DNA from: Candidatus Rokuibacteriota bacterium
Lineage (GTDB): Bacteria > JAUVQV01
Direction: 5' to 3'
Assembly (NCBI GenBank): GCA_030609125.1
Contig: JAUWCW010000001.1
Span: 1 to 31,091 of the forward strand
Length of the DNA stretch: 31,091 nucleotides
In this document: piece by piece, positions 15,722-23,575 of the stretch
How the letters are laid out: every line of letters starts with the position of its first letter
Numbering within the stretch: position 1 is the first letter of the stretch
Position numbers and translations under genes: made by a program
Notes under the pieces: model-generated
Database searches by the model: none
Seen by the model: the letters and a program-made list of their open reading frames with translations, nothing else
Told to the model about the DNA's origin: nothing

Positions 15722-18700
15722 GTGCGCAAAGTCACGGCAGGTATAGCAGTCCTTCTGGCCACGGGAGGCTGGCTCCTCTGGAGCGCCGCCCCGGCGGGGG
15801 CGGTCTCCCCGTGGTCCCACTACGACCGGGCGGGCGGTCTCGTCGACAATACCGTTCAGGTTATCGCCCGCGCCGGCGACGGTACGCTCTGGGTCGGCAC
15901 CAGGGGGGGGCTCAGCCGCTTCGACGGTCACCAGTGGCGAAATGTCACGAAAGAGGACGGCCTTCCCGACGACGACATCAACACGATTTTTCTGGATCCC
16001 GGGGGGCAGGCCTGGCGCGGAACGAGCAGGGGGTTCGGTTTTTTGCGCGACGGGCGGTGGAGCCGCCTCGGCCTGCCCGGGGCCCGGACGGGCGAGAAGG
16101 TGTCGGTCGTCTCCGACGCCGAGGGGAGGATCTGGTTCGGCTACGCCGGCGGGCTGATGAGCTTCGGGGGGGACGAAGAGGGGCTGCAGACGGTGGCGGC
16201 CCTCGACGGCACCCCCGTGACGGCCCTTCTCGCCGACCGCGAGGGAGGGCTCTGGGTCGGCACCAGGGAGGACGTGAGGTACTTCGACGGCGTGGACTGG
16301 ACGGTCCACACCGCCGCCGCCGGTCTCTCGCCCGGGGTTGTGACCAGCCTGCTGGAGGATTCGCGCGGCACCGTCTGGTGCGGCACTGAGGGGGGGCTCT
16401 CCGAATACGACGGCATCGGCTGGACGGCCTACGGCGCCCGTGACGATCTGCCCAACACCCACGTGACCGCCCTGGCGGAGGATCGCAAGGGACGCGTGTG
16501 GATAGGCACCCGGGGCGGAGTCGGCTGGTACGACGGCTACGACTGGATCTGGCTCGGCGAGAGTGAGGGCATCCCCTCCGAGGAGGTGCTTGCGCTGCAG
16601 GCCGACCTGAACGGCTCGATATGGATCGGCACATCACACGGGCTGATAAAGTATGACACCGCCTGGCTTGCCCTCGATTCCGTCGGTTACGACGAAGAGT
16701 CCCCCCGGGGGCCCCTTCTGCGGGACGGTGACGGCCTGCTGTTCATGGGGACGGACGAGGGCTTTCTCGAGATGGACGGGCGCCAGGTGGAGCACGTGGG
16801 ACCCGACGACGACCTGACGGGTCGGGTGAGCGTCTTTCTTGCCGACCTCGAGGGGGACGTCTGGATCGGTACGGACAACGGGCTCTACGTTTACAGCAGG
16901 GGCAGCCTCCGGCACTTCACACCTCCGGAGTACCAGTCAGAGCTCCGCCGGTACGACTACGGCGCCGAGTCGGTGAAGGTTCGCCACTTCGATCGCTACA
17001 ACGGGCTCAAGGACGAGATGGTCACCGCCCTCTGGGGAGTGGGGGAAGAAGAGATGTGGGTCGGCACTCCGAAGGGGCTGAGCCTCTACGCCGACGGGCA
17101 ATGGGACCTGGTCGAAGAGAATGAGCTTCTGGGGAAAGGGGAGATCACCGCCCTGGAGGGTGTCGCGGGGGAGGTGCTCTGGGTGGGGACCCCGGAGGGG
17201 CTGTGGACCCGTCGCGACGAGGAGTGGTCCGTTGTCGGGGCGCTGGCGGGAAAGGCCGTTCGCACCCTCTTCCGGGACCGGGACGGGAACCTCTGGGCCG
17301 GGACCGATCGGGGGGTGTCGCTCTGGAACGGTGAGGCCTGGCGGGACGTCGACCCCGGTGCGGGCCTCTCGGGGAGCGCCGTAGCGGAAATATTCCAGGA
17401 CCGCACGGGTATCATGTGGTTCGGTACCGACGCGGGAGTGGCGAAGTTTGACGGCTCGTACTGGAGCGCCTTCAGCGAGGCCGACGGTCTGCACGCGAAC
17501 GCCATTACCTCCATCATGGAAAACGGGGACGAGCTCTGGTTCGGCTCCTCCGAGGGGGTGACCCTCTACCGTCCCGACCGCGCGGCCCCCGACACGAGCC
17601 TGAAGGCCCCCCCCGGCGGGGTGGTGGGAACTTCGAGCTACCTCTTCGAGTTCGCCGCTTCGGACTTCGAGACCCCCCCGGGCAGGATGCGCTACTCCTG
17701 GCGCCTCGACGACGGCGAATGGAGCGACTTCGGCCGCGAGGCGCGGGTGACGGTGCTGGATCTGGCCAACGGAACCCACACCTTTGCCGTTCGCGGCATG
17801 GACCAGGGCCTCAACATCGACCCCACTCCCGCCGTGGTGAGTTTCCAGGTCGACACGGGGGTCTTCGACCTGGAAGTGGTGGAGATCGCCTTCGAGGACC
17901 TCTACGCATCTCTCTACCAGTTCTACGTCGCCGACAGGGACTTTGAGAAGAGGTCTCCGGCGCGGGTCAGCATCAGGAACAAGTTCGACAAGCCTCTTCG
18001 TGTGAAGGTCAGCTTCTTCATCCCGGGGCTGATGGATTTTCCCGGCGACCGGATCGTCACCATCGGTCCCGGCGAGGTTCTTCCCGTCCCCCTGAGGGTC
18101 GGGCTGAGCGACGCGGTTCTGGGGCTGGAGGAGACGGCGGCCCGCCAAGCCCTGGTCAAGCTGCAGTACAGCCTCCGTGGGGAGATGAAGGAGTCGTCGG
18201 TTTCCCGGTCGGTGACGATCTTCGAGAAGCACAGCATGACGTGGGAGGAGCCGGGCCGGGTCGGGCTCTACGTGACGCACCTGGACCCCGTGGTGGAGCA
18301 GTTCGCCCGCGGGGTTGTGAGTCAGTTCAGGGAGGATGAGAAGGAGACCATAATCTACGACAATCTCCTGCGGGGGATCGAAATCTTCGACGCCCTCGGC
18401 GCGTACGGCGTGCGCTACATCCCCGACCCCGAAAACCCCTACGGCAGTCTGGCTGCCGGGGGAGGAGTGCTCGACCTGATCCGCTTCCCCCGGGAGACCC
18501 TGGTGATGAGGTCCGGCGACTGCGACGACGTCTCCGTGCTCTACGCGGCCCTCCTTCAGAACATAGGGATCGACACGGCCCTCGTCGACGTCTACGATCA
18601 CGTCTTCGTCATTTTCGACACCGGGCTCAAAAGGGGGCAGTCGGGTCAGCTGACCCGGGACGCTGCGCTGCTGTACGTGGACGAGCAGGACCGGGTCTGG

Positions 18701-19339
18701 GTTCCGGTGGAGACCACCCTCCTGGGCAAGTCCTTCTCCGAAGCGTGGAGAACGGGCGCCCGGATGCTGGAGGAGCGGAAGTACGAGATCATCGAAATCA
18801 AGGAAGCCTGGAAGAAGTACCCGCCCATCCACCTCCCGGACGAGGCGCCGACGGTGGCCGTTCCGTCCCGGAGAGAAATCTGGCCCCTCTTCGAACAGGA
18901 CCTGAAGATACAGGAGCAGACCCTGGTGGGCGGCAGGGTGATGAAGCTCCAGCGGAAGCTGATGAAGCATCCCGCCGACGTGGCGGCTCTCAACTCCCTG
19001 GGGATTCTCCTGGCGAAGCACGGGTACCTCCTCCAGGCGGAGGCCCGTTTCAGGAAGGTTGTCGATCTGGCCCCCGGCTTTGCCGGGGGGCACAGCAACC
19101 TGGCAAACGTTCTTTACGAGAGGGAGGTGTACGAAGAGGCCATCGAACGGTACCTCCAGTCTCTTGCGTTCGATCCCGACTGCCCGGATGTTCACTTCGA
19201 GCTGGCTCTGAGGTTTCGCGATGGGGGCAGGTTCGACAGGGCCCGCGAACACTATCGGCTGGCGATGGATCTCGATGTGGATCTGGGGTCCGGGGCCGGC
19301 GGTGAAACTGTCATAACGGTTGAAAGGAGGGAACCATGA
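15722..19339 (+). CDS. Secreted multidomain protein: 14 two-component-regulator propeller repeats + Y_Y_Y + Ig-like + transglutaminase-like domain + TPR
   Basis: Signal peptide (MRKVTAGIAVLLATGG...AGA); 14 W/FxG(T/S/Y) propeller blades; YSWRLDDGEW...GTHTFAVR (Y_Y_Y-like); GDCDD...DHVF...WVPVETT; three C-terminal TPR-like repeats; no TM segment after the signal peptide. Confidence 0.8.
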   Translation: MRKVTAGIAVLLATGGWLLWSAAPAGAVSPWSHYDRAGGLVDNTVQVIARAGDGTLWVGTRGGLSRFDGHQWRNVTKEDGLPDDDINTIFLDPGGQAWRGTSRGFGFLRDGRWSRLGLPGARTGEKVSVVSDAEGRIWFGYAGGLMSFGGDEEGLQTVAALDGTPVTALLADREGGLWVGTREDVRYFDGVDWTVHTAAAGLSPGVVTSLLEDSRGTVWCGTEGGLSEYDGIGWTAYGARDDLPNTHVTALAEDRKGRVWIGTRGGVGWYDGYDWIWLGESEGIPSEEVLALQADLNGSIWIGTSHGLIKYDTAWLALDSVGYDEESPRGPLLRDGDGLLFMGTDEGFLEMDGRQVEHVGPDDDLTGRVSVFLADLEGDVWIGTDNGLYVYSRGSLRHFTPPEYQSELRRYDYGAESVKVRHFDRYNGLKDEMVTALWGVGEEEMWVGTPKGLSLYADGQWDLVEENELLGKGEITALEGVAGEVLWVGTPEGLWTRRDEEWSVVGALAGKAVRTLFRDRDGNLWAGTDRGVSLWNGEAWRDVDPGAGLSGSAVAEIFQDRTGIMWFGTDAGVAKFDGSYWSAFSEADGLHANAITSIMENGDELWFGSSEGVTLYRPDRAAPDTSLKAPPGGVVGTSSYLFEFAASDFETPPGRMRYSWRLDDGEWSDFGREARVTVLDLANGTHTFAVRGMDQGLNIDPTPAVVSFQVDTGVFDLEVVEIAFEDLYASLYQFYVADRDFEKRSPARVSIRNKFDKPLRVKVSFFIPGLMDFPGDRIVTIGPGEVLPVPLRVGLSDAVLGLEETAARQALVKLQYSLRGEMKESSVSRSVTIFEKHSMTWEEPGRVGLYVTHLDPVVEQFARGVVSQFREDEKETIIYDNLLRGIEIFDALGAYGVRYIPDPENPYGSLAAGGGVLDLIRFPRETLVMRSGDCDDVSVLYAALLQNIGIDTALVDVYDHVFVIFDTGLKRGQSGQLTRDAALLYVDEQDRVWVPVETTLLGKSFSEAWRTGARMLEERKYEIIEIKEAWKKYPPIHLPDEAPTVAVPSRREIWPLFEQDLKIQEQTLVGGRVMKLQRKLMKHPADVAALNSLGILLAKHGYLLQAEARFRKVVDLAPGFAGGHSNLANVLYEREVYEEAIERYLQSLAFDPDCPDVHFELALRFRDGGRFDRAREHYRLAMDLDVDLGSGAGGETVITVERREP

Positions 19340-22810: not shown

Positions 22811-22819
22811 AGAGGGACC

Positions 22820-23575
22820 GTGAAGGTGCCGCGACTTGAAGAGGCCCTCGGCGCTGCGGCCGCCAAGGCCCGCAACGCCGCCTTCGGCCTGCTCGATCTG
22901 GTCGTTCCTCCCGTGTGCCTGCTCTGCGGCGAGGGCCTGGAGAGGGAAGGGGAGGAGAGCCTTTGCCCCGCCTGTGACGACGGACTCCCCTCTTTCTCCC
23001 GTCCCCTCTGTGCCGGCTGTGGAGGGGCCCCCGTCCGGAGCGCCCTGGACTTCTGTCCGCCCTGCCGGGGAACCTGTTCCAGGGACGGGCTGGTGGTTCT
23101 GGGCCCCTTCAAGGGAGGCGTCCGGGATCTCGTCCACGCTTTCAAGTACAGGGCCGATTTCGGCGCCGGGAGGTACCTGGCCCGCCGTCTCGCGATGAGG
23201 GCCGCCGTTGAGCTCGGGCAGTGCTGCGACCTGGTCGTCCCCGTTCCCCTGCACCGGCGCCGCCTGCGCTCCCGCGGGTTCAACCAGGCGGCCCTGCTGG
23301 CGCGTCGGATTTCGAAGCAGACGGGCCGGCCCCTGCTGGCGCGCGCCCTGGAGCGACGGATTCATACCCGCTCCCTTACGGGACTCGACCTGAGGGAGAG
23401 AAAAAGGGAGGTGCGGGGCGCCATGAACCTGCGACGCGGCGTCTCTGTGGAGGGTAGAAGAGTACTCGTCGTGGACGATGTCTTCACCTCCGGCGCGACG
23501 ACGGAAGAATGCTGCAGAATTCTCAAGCGGGCAGGGGCGTCGCGGGTCATCGTCGCCGCGGTGGCCAGGGCGTGA
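22820..23575 (+). CDS. comF: ComF family protein (double zinc ribbon + phosphoribosyltransferase-like domain)
   Basis: CLLC/CPAC/CAGC/CPPC; PVPLHRRRLRSRGFNQA; VLVVDDVFTSGAT. Confidence 0.92.
   Translation: MKVPRLEEALGAAAAKARNAAFGLLDLVVPPVCLLCGEGLEREGEESLCPACDDGLPSFSRPLCAGCGGAPVRSALDFCPPCRGTCSRDGLVVLGPFKGGVRDLVHAFKYRADFGAGRYLARRLAMRAAVELGQCCDLVVPVPLHRRRLRSRGFNQAALLARRISKQTGRPLLARALERRIHTRSLTGLDLRERKREVRGAMNLRRGVSVEGRRVLVVDDVFTSGATTEECCRILKRAGASRVIVAAVARA

What the first reader, a model, noticed from the sequence alone, without database searches (positions are those of the whole stretch)
15722..23575. Five-gene coupled operon linking an extracytoplasmic protease-like sensor, mini-FecR, CHASE2 kinase, non-cleavable LexA and ComF
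Seen in sequence: five same-strand genes joined by ATGA (19336-39), TAATG (19795-99) and ATGA (22208-11) overlaps and a 9-nt gap. They start after an AT-rich promoter region and end before the gap promoter. Established: CHASE2 sensors often neighbour FecR-domain and TPR genes, ComF acts in natural transformation, and LexA normally couples DNA damage to transcription through RecA-stimulated self-cleavage. Inference: this may be an envelope-to-DNA circuit in which an exported propeller/Cys-protease-like protein and FecR partner generate a periplasmic signal read by CHASE2, with output through a RecA-independent LexA paralog controlling competence or recombination genes. I know of no described system with this combination, but cannot confirm novelty without a search.
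Basis: partly seen in the sequence, partly recalled or inferred. Interest (0 to 1): 0.85.

Follow-up and report, generated by a model that had tools for sequence, protein, structure and literature searches.

The report
Sensor kinase operon with dead LexA
Five tightly packed genes (an exported propeller/transglutaminase-like protein, a small exported partner, a CHASE2 sensor kinase, a LexA copy that can no longer cut itself, and ComF) are a real unit inherited within one small, uncultured sediment phylum, but nothing shown here links the kinase to the LexA copy or to DNA uptake.

Summary
The five + strand genes, their ATGA/TAATG/ATGA overlaps and the 9-nt gap are as described. No promoter- or terminator-like site lies inside the unit beyond chance, and gap has its own promoter.

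The block recurs in every lineage of the host phylum, which has only 6 species genomes in GTDB and comes from cold-seep and marine sediment:
- **Family f1 (the window and metagenome relatives):** same five genes.
- **Family f3:** same five genes with entirely different flanks.
- **Family f2:** the LexA-like gene is missing but the other four remain. One f2 genome has lost the sensor trio and kept comF-gap.

The LexA-like protein has lost Ser119, Lys156 and the Ala-Gly site in all members. It is under purifying selection and coexists with a normal lexA-dinB pair. This subfamily was not found in 395 genomes outside the phylum.

The sensor part is a known kind of pairing: a small exported beta-sandwich protein next to a CHASE2 receptor, as in the Burkholderia BiofilmReg operon and MtxA. 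Non-cleavable LexA proteins are also known.

The "envelope-to-DNA circuit" remains inference. There is no receiver domain, no operator was found, the complex prediction was uninformative, and RNA data do not cover the junctions. Verdict: a new variant of known parts, of moderate interest.

The parts
15565..15593 (-). Promoter-like site of the divergent rluD gene (TTGACA-17-TATTAT). It accounts for the AT-rich inverted repeat in the intergenic region.
   Evidence: 11 of 12 matches. The site is conserved in L021, L059 and L075.
15686..15714 (+). Conserved block AACCCATTGAAGATAAAAAAGTATTAAAAT, ending 7 nt before the GTG start. It is the candidate promoter of the unit and would give a leaderless or near-leaderless mRNA.
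   Evidence: Alignment of four f1 upstream regions. f2 and f3 loci also carry a TATTAT/TATGAT box close to the start. The block is not repeated elsewhere in the genome beyond chance. Its promoter function is inferred.
15722..19339 (+). Exported multidomain protein: signal peptide, Reg_prop beta-propellers, Y_Y_Y-like Ig domain, a beta-sandwich (aa ~717-840), a transglutaminase-like core (aa ~900-1030; C934, H960, E997) and C-terminal TPR repeats.
   Evidence: Reg_prop E=1e-43 and TPR. Y_Y_Y E=0.0035 and Transglut_core E=0.0017, both below cut-off. Cys/His/Glu are invariant in 44 homologues. The model has pLDDT 89.6. Foldseek matches TG2 3s3p, factor XIII and protein 4.2.
18521..18712 (+). Codons of the invariant Cys934 (18521), His960 (18599) and Glu997 (18710) of the transglutaminase-like core.
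19336..19797 (+). Small exported protein: signal peptide, an 8-strand beta-sandwich (aa 28-90), a helix, and a highly conserved tail (VTPTTGVRGT...EEKAE..KREHYW).
   Evidence: Alignment A2. The model has pLDDT >90 for aa 30-100. The best PDB fold match is 5ix9, TMt 0.79. PF24045 E=3e-4 with no FecR hit.
19797..22211 (+). CHASE2-PAS-HisKA-HATPase_c histidine kinase with no receiver domain. The phospho-acceptor His574 is at 21516.
22208..22810 (+). LexA paralogue: winged-helix DNA-binding domain plus a degenerate S24 domain. Ala120 replaces Ser119, Gly157 replaces Lys156, and there is no Ala-Gly cleavage site.
   Evidence: LexA_DNA_bind E=1e-10 and S24 E=5e-6. Residue-level alignment to E. coli LexA structures. 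Family alignment. dN/dS 0.13-0.25.
22820..23575 (+). ComF/GntX-family protein with a double zinc ribbon (4 CxxC motifs) and a PRTase domain that keeps its PRPP loop (VLVVDDVFTSGAT).
23601..23630 (+). Promoter-like site of the gap-pgk-tpi-secG operon. It marks the 3' boundary of the unit.
   Evidence: TTGACA-18-TACCAT, 10 of 12. Conserved in L021 and L075.

Best explanation
This is a vertically inherited operon confined to one small candidate phylum of marine-sediment bacteria. It joins three modules.

**1. A periplasmic sensing module of a known general kind.**
- It has a large exported protein that couples ligand-binding propellers of the hybrid-two-component type to a conserved Cys-His-Glu transglutaminase/protease-like core and TPR repeats.
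- It has a small exported beta-sandwich protein.
- It has a CHASE2-PAS histidine kinase.
- Inferred mechanism: an envelope or extracellular cue is captured or processed by the two exported proteins and read by CHASE2. The kinase then autophosphorylates His574 and passes the phosphate to a response regulator encoded elsewhere. The genome has 47 REC matches and none is in this window.

**2. A catalytically dead LexA paralogue, translationally coupled to the kinase.** It is inferred to act as a stable, RecA-independent dimeric DNA-binding regulator, most likely a local repressor of this unit or of a small regulon. It is made in a fixed ratio with the kinase.

**3. The genome's single comF gene.** It is carried along as the last cistron.

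**Shown here:** gene structure, coupling, domain content, loss of the LexA catalytic residues, purifying selection, and conservation of the block.

**Inferred only:** the signal, the phosphotransfer partner, the DNA targets, and any kinase-to-LexA link.
For: - **Structure and junctions:**
- **No internal promoter or terminator above chance; gap has its own promoter:**
- **Same five-gene order in f1 contigs** L021, L025, L028, L059 and L075.
- **Same order in f3** (G005, L055, L056), where both flanks differ.
- **Kinase stop overlaps the LexA-like start** by 1-26 nt in six of seven loci that have both genes.
- **Dead catalytic site in every f1 and f3 member:**
- **Canonical lexA-dinB pair elsewhere in the genome:**
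- **Purifying selection:** dN/dS 0.13-0.35 for all five genes.
- **Kinase catalytic motifs are invariant:**
- **REC matches:** 47 in the genome, none on this contig.
- **Known precedent for an exported-protein/CHASE2 pairing:** PMC5192318 and PMC4439547.
Against: - No operator could be identified. The conserved upstream blocks are explained by two promoters, and the block next to the start is not repeated in the genome.
- Family f2 has lost the LexA-like gene while keeping the other four genes, so the sensor does not need it.
- G003 keeps comF-gap without the trio, so comF does not need the sensor.
- A close relative has a 133-nt spacer with a TAAAAT box before the LexA-like gene, so coupling is not universal.
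- The phylum is small, so block conservation rests on only about three independent lineages.
- Metatranscriptome contigs cover only 229 nt inside the LexA-like gene and no junction.
Confidence: 0.55

Rival explanations
1. **The LexA-like protein is the kinase's output.** On this reading the dead LexA paralogue replaces a response regulator. The CHASE2 kinase would control it directly by binding or sequestration at the membrane, or by non-canonical modification. This would tie an envelope signal to transcription of comF or other DNA-uptake and recombination genes.
For: - f1 and f3 operons contain no response regulator, while the LexA-like gene sits where a regulator usually sits and overlaps the kinase stop codon across deep divergence. 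The LexA-like proteins are only 28% identical between f1 and f3, yet the overlap is retained.
- f2, the only lineage without it, has a HAMP kinase/NtrC-type regulator pair directly upstream on the same strand.
- No orthologue of that regulator above 46% identity was found in G000.
- comF always follows.
Against: - The protein has no receiver domain and no known phospho-acceptor.
- The kinase keeps a standard H-box, which implies a REC partner.
- f2 keeps the kinase without the LexA-like gene.
- The complex prediction scored 0.00, which the tool states is no evidence either way.
- G005 has a 48% match to the f2 regulator, so the complementary distribution is not clean.
- comF, comEC and dprA are near-universal housekeeping-type genes and are not clustered here.
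Confidence: 0.15
2. **Neighbourhood by descent only.** On this reading the sensor trio, the LexA-like gene and comF are functionally unrelated neighbours. Their order persists because the phylum is small and little rearranged, and compact genomes pack unrelated genes into overlapping cistrons.
For: - comF-gap-pgk-tpi-secG synteny is shared by f1 and f2 and survives deletion of the trio in G003.
- The LexA-like gene is dispensable in f2.
- L075 and L076 carry a spacer with a promoter-like box ahead of the LexA-like gene.
- Only the LexA-like segment appears in metatranscriptome contigs.
- There are only 6 species genomes in the phylum.
Against: - In f3 both flanks are different (MFS upstream, a TPR/PMT_2 gene downstream, no gap), yet the five genes remain together in the same order with short overlaps.
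- Overlapping stop/start codons are kept in most lineages despite dS near or above 0.9.
Confidence: 0.3

Closest known systems
Burkholderia 'BiofilmReg' operon (response regulator, LysM/FecR exported protein, CHASE2-PAS histidine kinase, unknown protein; PMC5192318)
   Same: Both have an exported accessory protein encoded directly upstream of a CHASE2-PAS-HisKA-HATPase_c kinase, in one operon with a further exported or unknown protein.
   Different: - BiofilmReg includes an OmpR-type response regulator. The present unit has none and carries a dead LexA paralogue and comF instead.
- The accessory protein here gives no LysM or FecR Pfam match.
- The large partner here is a propeller/transglutaminase-like/TPR protein.
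MtxA followed by a CHASE2 adenylate cyclase in magnetotactic bacteria (PMC4439547; Pfam PF24045 MtxA_N/DUF7354)
   Same: In both, a small exported protein precedes a CHASE2 receptor gene. The protein's only Pfam similarity is to the MtxA N-terminal domain (E=3e-4, below cut-off).
   Different: - The output domain here is a kinase, not a cyclase.
- The MtxA_N match is sub-threshold.
- There is no magnetotaxis context.
Non-cleavable LexA of Synechocystis sp. PCC 6803 (PMC3091678)
   Same: Both are LexA-fold proteins that have lost the Ala-Gly site and the Ser nucleophile, and so are presumed RecA-independent and diverted from the SOS response.
   Different: - Synechocystis has it as its only LexA. 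Here it is a paralogue beside a canonical lexA-dinB pair.
- Here the Lys is also lost (always Gly), and the gene is translationally coupled to a sensor kinase.
Bacteroides hybrid two-component system sensor ectodomains (Reg_prop propellers plus Y_Y_Y)
   Same: Both have tandem Reg_prop beta-propellers followed by a Y_Y_Y-type Ig domain in an extracytoplasmic location.
   Different: - Here the ectodomain is a separate exported protein, not fused to the kinase.
- It continues into a transglutaminase-like Cys-His-Glu core and TPR repeats.
- The comparison with Bacteroides systems rests on my own knowledge of the family, not on a test here.
ComF/ComFC/GntX DNA-uptake proteins
   Same: The protein shares the double zinc ribbon and the PRTase domain with an intact PRPP loop. 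It matches TIGR00201 and the GntX model at E=2e-28.
   Different: - Scores are below the curated equivalog cut-offs (99 bits against 233 and 304).
- Its operon position behind a kinase and a LexA paralogue has no precedent in the papers I searched.

Membership tests
LexA (SOS repressor, TIGR00498) | N-terminal winged-helix LexA DNA-binding domain | tested here: met
   PF01726 E=1.3e-10, above cut-off. It aligns to LexA structures 8s7g, 3k2z and 1jhh.
LexA (SOS repressor, TIGR00498) | S24 Ser-Lys catalytic dyad (E. coli Ser119, Lys156) | tested here: not met
   Ser119 aligns to Ala120 and Lys156 to Gly157. The same loss is seen in all 15 f1 members and 3 f3 members.
LexA (SOS repressor, TIGR00498) | Ala-Gly self-cleavage site in the linker | tested here: not met
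   The linker reads ...ELEIRPTFG... where canonical LexA has VAAGEP or VPAGTP.
LexA (SOS repressor, TIGR00498) | Score above the curated equivalog cut-off | tested here: not met
   56.9 bits against a cut-off of 110.95.
Two-component system (kinase with cognate regulator) | Histidine kinase with H-box His and ATP-binding N/G1/F/G2 boxes | tested here: met
   HisKA E=5e-14 and HATPase_c E=1e-23. H574 and the ATP-binding motifs are invariant in 7 orthologues.
Two-component system (kinase with cognate regulator) | Receiver (REC) domain partner encoded in the unit | tested here: not met
   None of the five proteins has a Response_reg hit. None of the 47 genomic REC matches lies on contig C30.
FecR-domain protein (PF04773) | Match to the FecR profile | tested here: not met
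   No FecR hit at E<=1 for aa 20-110. The fold search does not return FecR/PupR structures.
Transglutaminase-like superfamily (PF01841) | Papain-like core with a Cys-His-Asp/Glu triad | tested here: met
   C934, H960 and E997 are invariant in 44 homologues. Foldseek matches TG2, factor XIII and protein 4.2 cores at prob 1.00. The Pfam score itself is sub-threshold (19.1 against 23 bits), but homologues P0070 and P0074 pass.
Transglutaminase-like superfamily (PF01841) | Catalytic activity (protease or cross-linking) | not testable with these tools
   This needs an enzyme assay.
ComF/ComFC | Zinc-ribbon plus PRTase architecture | tested here: met
   DZR_2 E=8e-9 and Pribosyltran E=2e-8. Four CxxC motifs and the PRPP loop are present.
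ComF/ComFC | Role in DNA uptake | not testable with these tools
   ComEC and DprA genes are present elsewhere in the genome.

The most novel reading that the evidence does not exclude
A histidine kinase has acquired a non-receiver output. On this reading the CHASE2 kinase directly controls a catalytically dead LexA paralogue, by binding or unconventional modification. An extracytoplasmic cue processed by the propeller/transglutaminase-like protein would then switch transcription of comF and other DNA-uptake or recombination genes without RecA and without a response regulator.
Probability: 0.12. Interest if true: 0.8.

Novelty: new variant of a known kind. Interest (0 to 1): 0.45.

Why it matters
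If the kinase and the dead LexA paralogue really work together, this would be an example of a two-component sensor wired to a non-receiver transcription factor. It would also be a second, independent case, after cyanobacteria, of the LexA fold being re-used outside the SOS response. Here the paralogue sits beside a normal LexA, so the two functions can be compared in one organism.

The exported propeller/Ig/transglutaminase-like/TPR protein belongs to a widespread, uncharacterised module with an invariant Cys-His-Glu triad. That module is found with different propellers in several phyla, so a biochemical function found here would transfer widely.

As it stands, the finding is a well-supported phylum-specific operon. 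Its parts are individually familiar, and the linkage among them is unproven.

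Tried and rejected
1. **Operator search.** The AT-rich inverted repeat at about 15550-15575 looked like an operator, but it is the -35/-10 of the divergent rluD promoter. The conserved block next to the start codon occurs only twice in the genome against about one expected by chance. No regulon could be derived.
2. **Complex prediction.** The kinase DHp-CA dimer with a LexA-like dimer scored 0.00. 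The tool states this is evidence neither for nor against binding.
3. **Transcript evidence.** Only two metatranscriptomic runs hold any of the region. They contain one 229-nt contig inside the LexA-like gene and no junction is covered. DNA carry-over cannot be excluded.
4. **'FecR' label for the small protein.** Rejected on the HMM and fold tests.
5. **Other catalytically degenerate LexA-like proteins.** About 20 of the 150 best phmmer hits are full-length proteins that lack the Ser and/or Lys. Of the two contexts I looked up, one was an ordinary housekeeping neighbourhood and the other contig was too short to tell.
6. **Distant homologue of the transglutaminase-like module.** A Gammaproteobacteria homologue is not next to a CHASE2 gene, so the trio is not a universal association of that module.
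7. **Second CHASE2 gene of the genome.** It is a cyclase on C297, and the small upstream ORF is unrelated to the small protein here.
8. **Profile search of solved structures with the transglutaminase-like module.** It found only TPR matches.

Full report
**1. The observation**

The window has about 65% G+C. Five + strand ORFs lie at 15722-19339, 19336-19797, 19797-22211, 22208-22810 and 22820-23575. I read the junctions directly:
- ATGA at 19336-19339.
- TAATG at 19795-19799.
- ATGA at 22208-22211.
- TGA, then 9 nt, then GTG at 22820.

Upstream lies a divergent pseudouridine synthase gene, followed by radical-SAM, obg and proB genes. Downstream lie gap and pgk. The consensus scan finds no promoter-like site between 22211 and 22820. 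The 7 terminator-like sites in 15300-23900 do not exceed the shuffle expectation of 5.9, and none lies in that interval. A promoter-like site at 23601-23630 precedes gap. The description is therefore correct.

**2. The five proteins**

*Gene 1 (1205 aa).*
- It has a signal peptide, a strong Reg_prop match (E=1e-43) and C-terminal TPR repeats.
- It has weak Y_Y_Y (E=0.0035) and Transglut_core (E=0.0017) matches, both below cut-off.
- An alignment of residues 700-1100 with 43 homologues, down to 23% identity, has invariant C934, H960 and E997.
- The AlphaFold model of this part (pLDDT 89.6) is a beta-sandwich followed by a core. Foldseek matches that core to transglutaminase 2, factor XIII and protein 4.2, and matches the sandwich to Ig/MG-like domains.
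Activity is untested.

*Gene 2 (153 aa).*
- It has a signal peptide. It folds confidently into an eight-strand beta-sandwich plus a helix. Its tail is very conserved.
- It gives no FecR match at E<=1, only PF24045 (DUF7354, called MtxA_N in newer Pfam) at E=3e-4.
- Its best structural match is 5ix9, a "cell surface anchoring domain". "Mini-FecR" is therefore not confirmed.

*Gene 3.* It is a CHASE2-PAS-HisKA-HATPase_c kinase without a receiver domain. H574 and the ATP-binding motifs are invariant in orthologues.

*Gene 4.*
- It matches LexA_DNA_bind and, weakly, Peptidase_S24.
- Aligned to E. coli LexA structures, Ser119 corresponds to Ala120, Lys156 to Gly157, and the Ala-Gly site is gone.
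- The genome also has a canonical LexA with VPAG, GESM and TVKR motifs, next to a dinB-type polymerase gene on contig C324.

*Gene 5.* It is a ComF/GntX-type protein with four CxxC motifs and an intact PRPP loop.

**3. Is the block conserved?**

The genome is a 2.3-Mb, 92%-complete MAG. Its GTDB phylum holds only six species genomes:
- the window's own family (f1);
- four genomes of one genus in the same order (f2);
- one genome in the same class (f3).

The DNA is found in cold-seep and marine-sediment metagenomes.

*f1 relatives.* Orthologues of the LexA-like protein (50-95% identity) occur only in metagenomes. On contigs L021, L025, L028, L059 and L075 the order is propeller protein, small protein, kinase, LexA-like. 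comF and gap follow wherever the contig reaches that far (L021, L025, L075).

*f3 relatives.* In G005, L055 and L056 the same five genes occur in the same order. The upstream gene is an MFS transporter and the downstream gene encodes a TPR/PMT_2 protein, not rluD or gap. Identities to the window are 38-39% for the propeller protein, 48-49% for the kinase, 39-40% for ComF and only 28-29% for the LexA-like protein. The LexA-like protein there is dead in the same way, with Gly at the Lys position.

*f2 relatives.* In G002, G004, L058 and L060 the propeller protein, small protein and kinase are present. Where the contig reaches beyond the kinase (G004, L058, L060), comF follows directly. The kinase and comF are 110-260 nt apart and no LexA-like gene lies between them. 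A HAMP kinase and an NtrC-type regulator sit directly upstream. In G003 only a remnant of the small gene precedes comF-gap-pgk.

*Interpretation.*
- The block is ancestral to the phylum.
- The LexA-like gene was lost once, in f2.
- The sensor trio was lost in one f2 genome.
- comF stays in place in every case.
- The losses show that the modules can function without each other.

**4. How special is the LexA-like family?**
- phmmer against 1.84 billion representatives finds three clusters at E<1e-18, then a drop to the level of canonical LexA.
- A profile of the family scores 334 and 223 bits in G000 and G005. It scores at most 104 bits in 395 genomes outside the phylum, in a search of 401 genomes from 349 genera.
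- Degenerate LexA-like proteins as such are not rare. About 20 of the best 150 hits are full-length proteins lacking Ser and/or Lys.
- Of the two contexts I looked up, one was ordinary and the other was too short to judge.
- dN/dS of the LexA-like gene is 0.13-0.25, within the range of its neighbours, so it is a functional gene.

**5. Tests of the proposed circuit**

*Coupling.* The kinase stop overlaps the LexA-like start by 1-26 nt in six of seven loci. In L075 and L076 (91% identity) a 133-nt, AT-richer spacer with a TAAAAT box intervenes. Coupling is therefore common but not obligatory.

*Operator.* The conserved upstream elements are the rluD promoter and a block ending 7 nt before the GTG start. 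That block looks like the unit's own promoter and implies a leaderless or near-leaderless mRNA. It is not repeated in the genome. No candidate operator emerged.

*Partner.* The genome has 47 REC matches and none is on this contig. An unlinked regulator is therefore plausible.

*Complex prediction.* The kinase core with the LexA-like protein gave 0.00. The tool itself says this is not evidence either way.

*RNA.* Two metatranscriptomic libraries contain a single 229-nt contig inside the LexA-like gene and nothing across the junctions.

*Competence.* comEC and dprA are present elsewhere, as in most bacteria, and TfoX was not found in G000.

**6. Comparison with what is known**
- An exported accessory protein directly upstream of a CHASE2 receptor is described for the Burkholderia BiofilmReg operon, which also carries a response regulator (PMC5192318).
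- The same pairing is described for MtxA upstream of a CHASE2 cyclase (PMC4439547).
- A non-cleavable LexA is known from Synechocystis (PMC3091678).
- A RecA-independent LexA-like regulator, IrvR, is known from Streptococcus mutans (PMC7101444).
- What is new here is the combination. No regulator is in the operon. A dead LexA paralogue is translationally coupled to the kinase. comF is the last cistron. A propeller/transglutaminase-like/TPR protein is the large periplasmic partner.
- I found no paper holding both "CHASE2" and "FecR" that describes such a unit.

**7. Verdict**
- The operon is real, conserved within a small phylum and under selection.
- The mechanistic reading as an envelope-to-DNA circuit is not excluded but is unsupported.
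- The most economical reading is a conventional CHASE2 sensing module with an unlinked regulator, plus a RecA-independent LexA-fold regulator and a resident comF gene.
- Novelty: a new variant of a known kind. Interest: 0.45.

Noticed in passing
window 15709-15724; L021, L075, L049, L051, L058 upstream regions: The -10-like box (TAAAAT, TATAAT or TATTAT) lies only 6-8 nt before the start codon of the propeller gene in f1 and f2 relatives. This suggests a leaderless or near-leaderless mRNA, here starting at a GTG. f3 loci instead have a leader with a GGAGG ribosome-binding site.
   Followed up: partly
L075:9868-10000 and L076:108-241; G000 contig C44 around 2621 (minus strand): The 133-nt spacer inserted between the kinase and the LexA-like gene in a 91%-identical relative contains AACCCATGGAAGATCGAAAGAGGGATTGTTTCTG. 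This resembles both the propeller-gene promoter block and a sequence on contig C44 of the window's genome. It may be a small repeated promoter or 5'-UTR element.
   Followed up: partly
window 19336-19797 (aa 110-150 of the small protein): The C-terminal tail (VTPTTGVRGT(D/E)..EEKAE..KREHYW) is the most conserved part of the small exported protein across all three families, yet it is predicted disordered or helical with low confidence. It could be a processing or docking peptide for the transglutaminase-like domain or for CHASE2.
   Followed up: no
P0057-P0107 (homologues of window 17819-19021); L057: The beta-sandwich plus transglutaminase-like (Cys-His-Glu) plus TPR module occurs in other phyla behind other N-terminal parts, such as NHL/SGL propellers and PorV/FadL-like barrels (names given include Gammaproteobacteria, Latescibacterota, Spirochaetales, Elusimicrobia). 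In one Gammaproteobacteria MAG it neighbours MoxR-type AAA and TgpA-like transglutaminase genes, not a CHASE2 gene. It is an uncharacterised, widespread module.
   Followed up: partly
L058:5931-8801, L060:5124-7924, L049 (G004:C95:8235-10365): In family f2 a YkuD-YkuD-x-HAMP kinase-NtrC regulator block sits directly upstream of the propeller gene on the same strand. No orthologue above 46% identity was found in G000.
   Followed up: partly
L056:7285-7614 (minus strand): A TfoX_N-domain gene (competence regulator family) lies 1.4 kb upstream of the cluster in one f3 contig. TfoX was not found in G000. This may be coincidence.
   Followed up: no
L058:17192-19499: In one f2 contig a PIN-domain toxin/antitoxin pair and an AbiEii-family gene are inserted between comF and gap.
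   Followed up: no
G000:C324:3512-5413 (L054): The canonical cleavable lexA is immediately followed by a DinB/Pol IV-type polymerase gene. This is a classic SOS pair and shows the organism has a normal SOS repressor.
   Followed up: yes
window 22495-22723: Of the whole 8.5-kb region, only this 229-nt piece of the LexA-like gene is assembled in two marine-sediment metatranscriptome libraries, with 1 mismatch. This may reflect higher or separate expression of the gene, or DNA carry-over.
   Followed up: partly
L050 (G005:C3:185000-193000): The kinase and propeller genes of G005 match in several frames with an in-frame TGA. These are either assembly frameshifts in a very high-GC genome or real decay of the cluster.
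   Followed up: no
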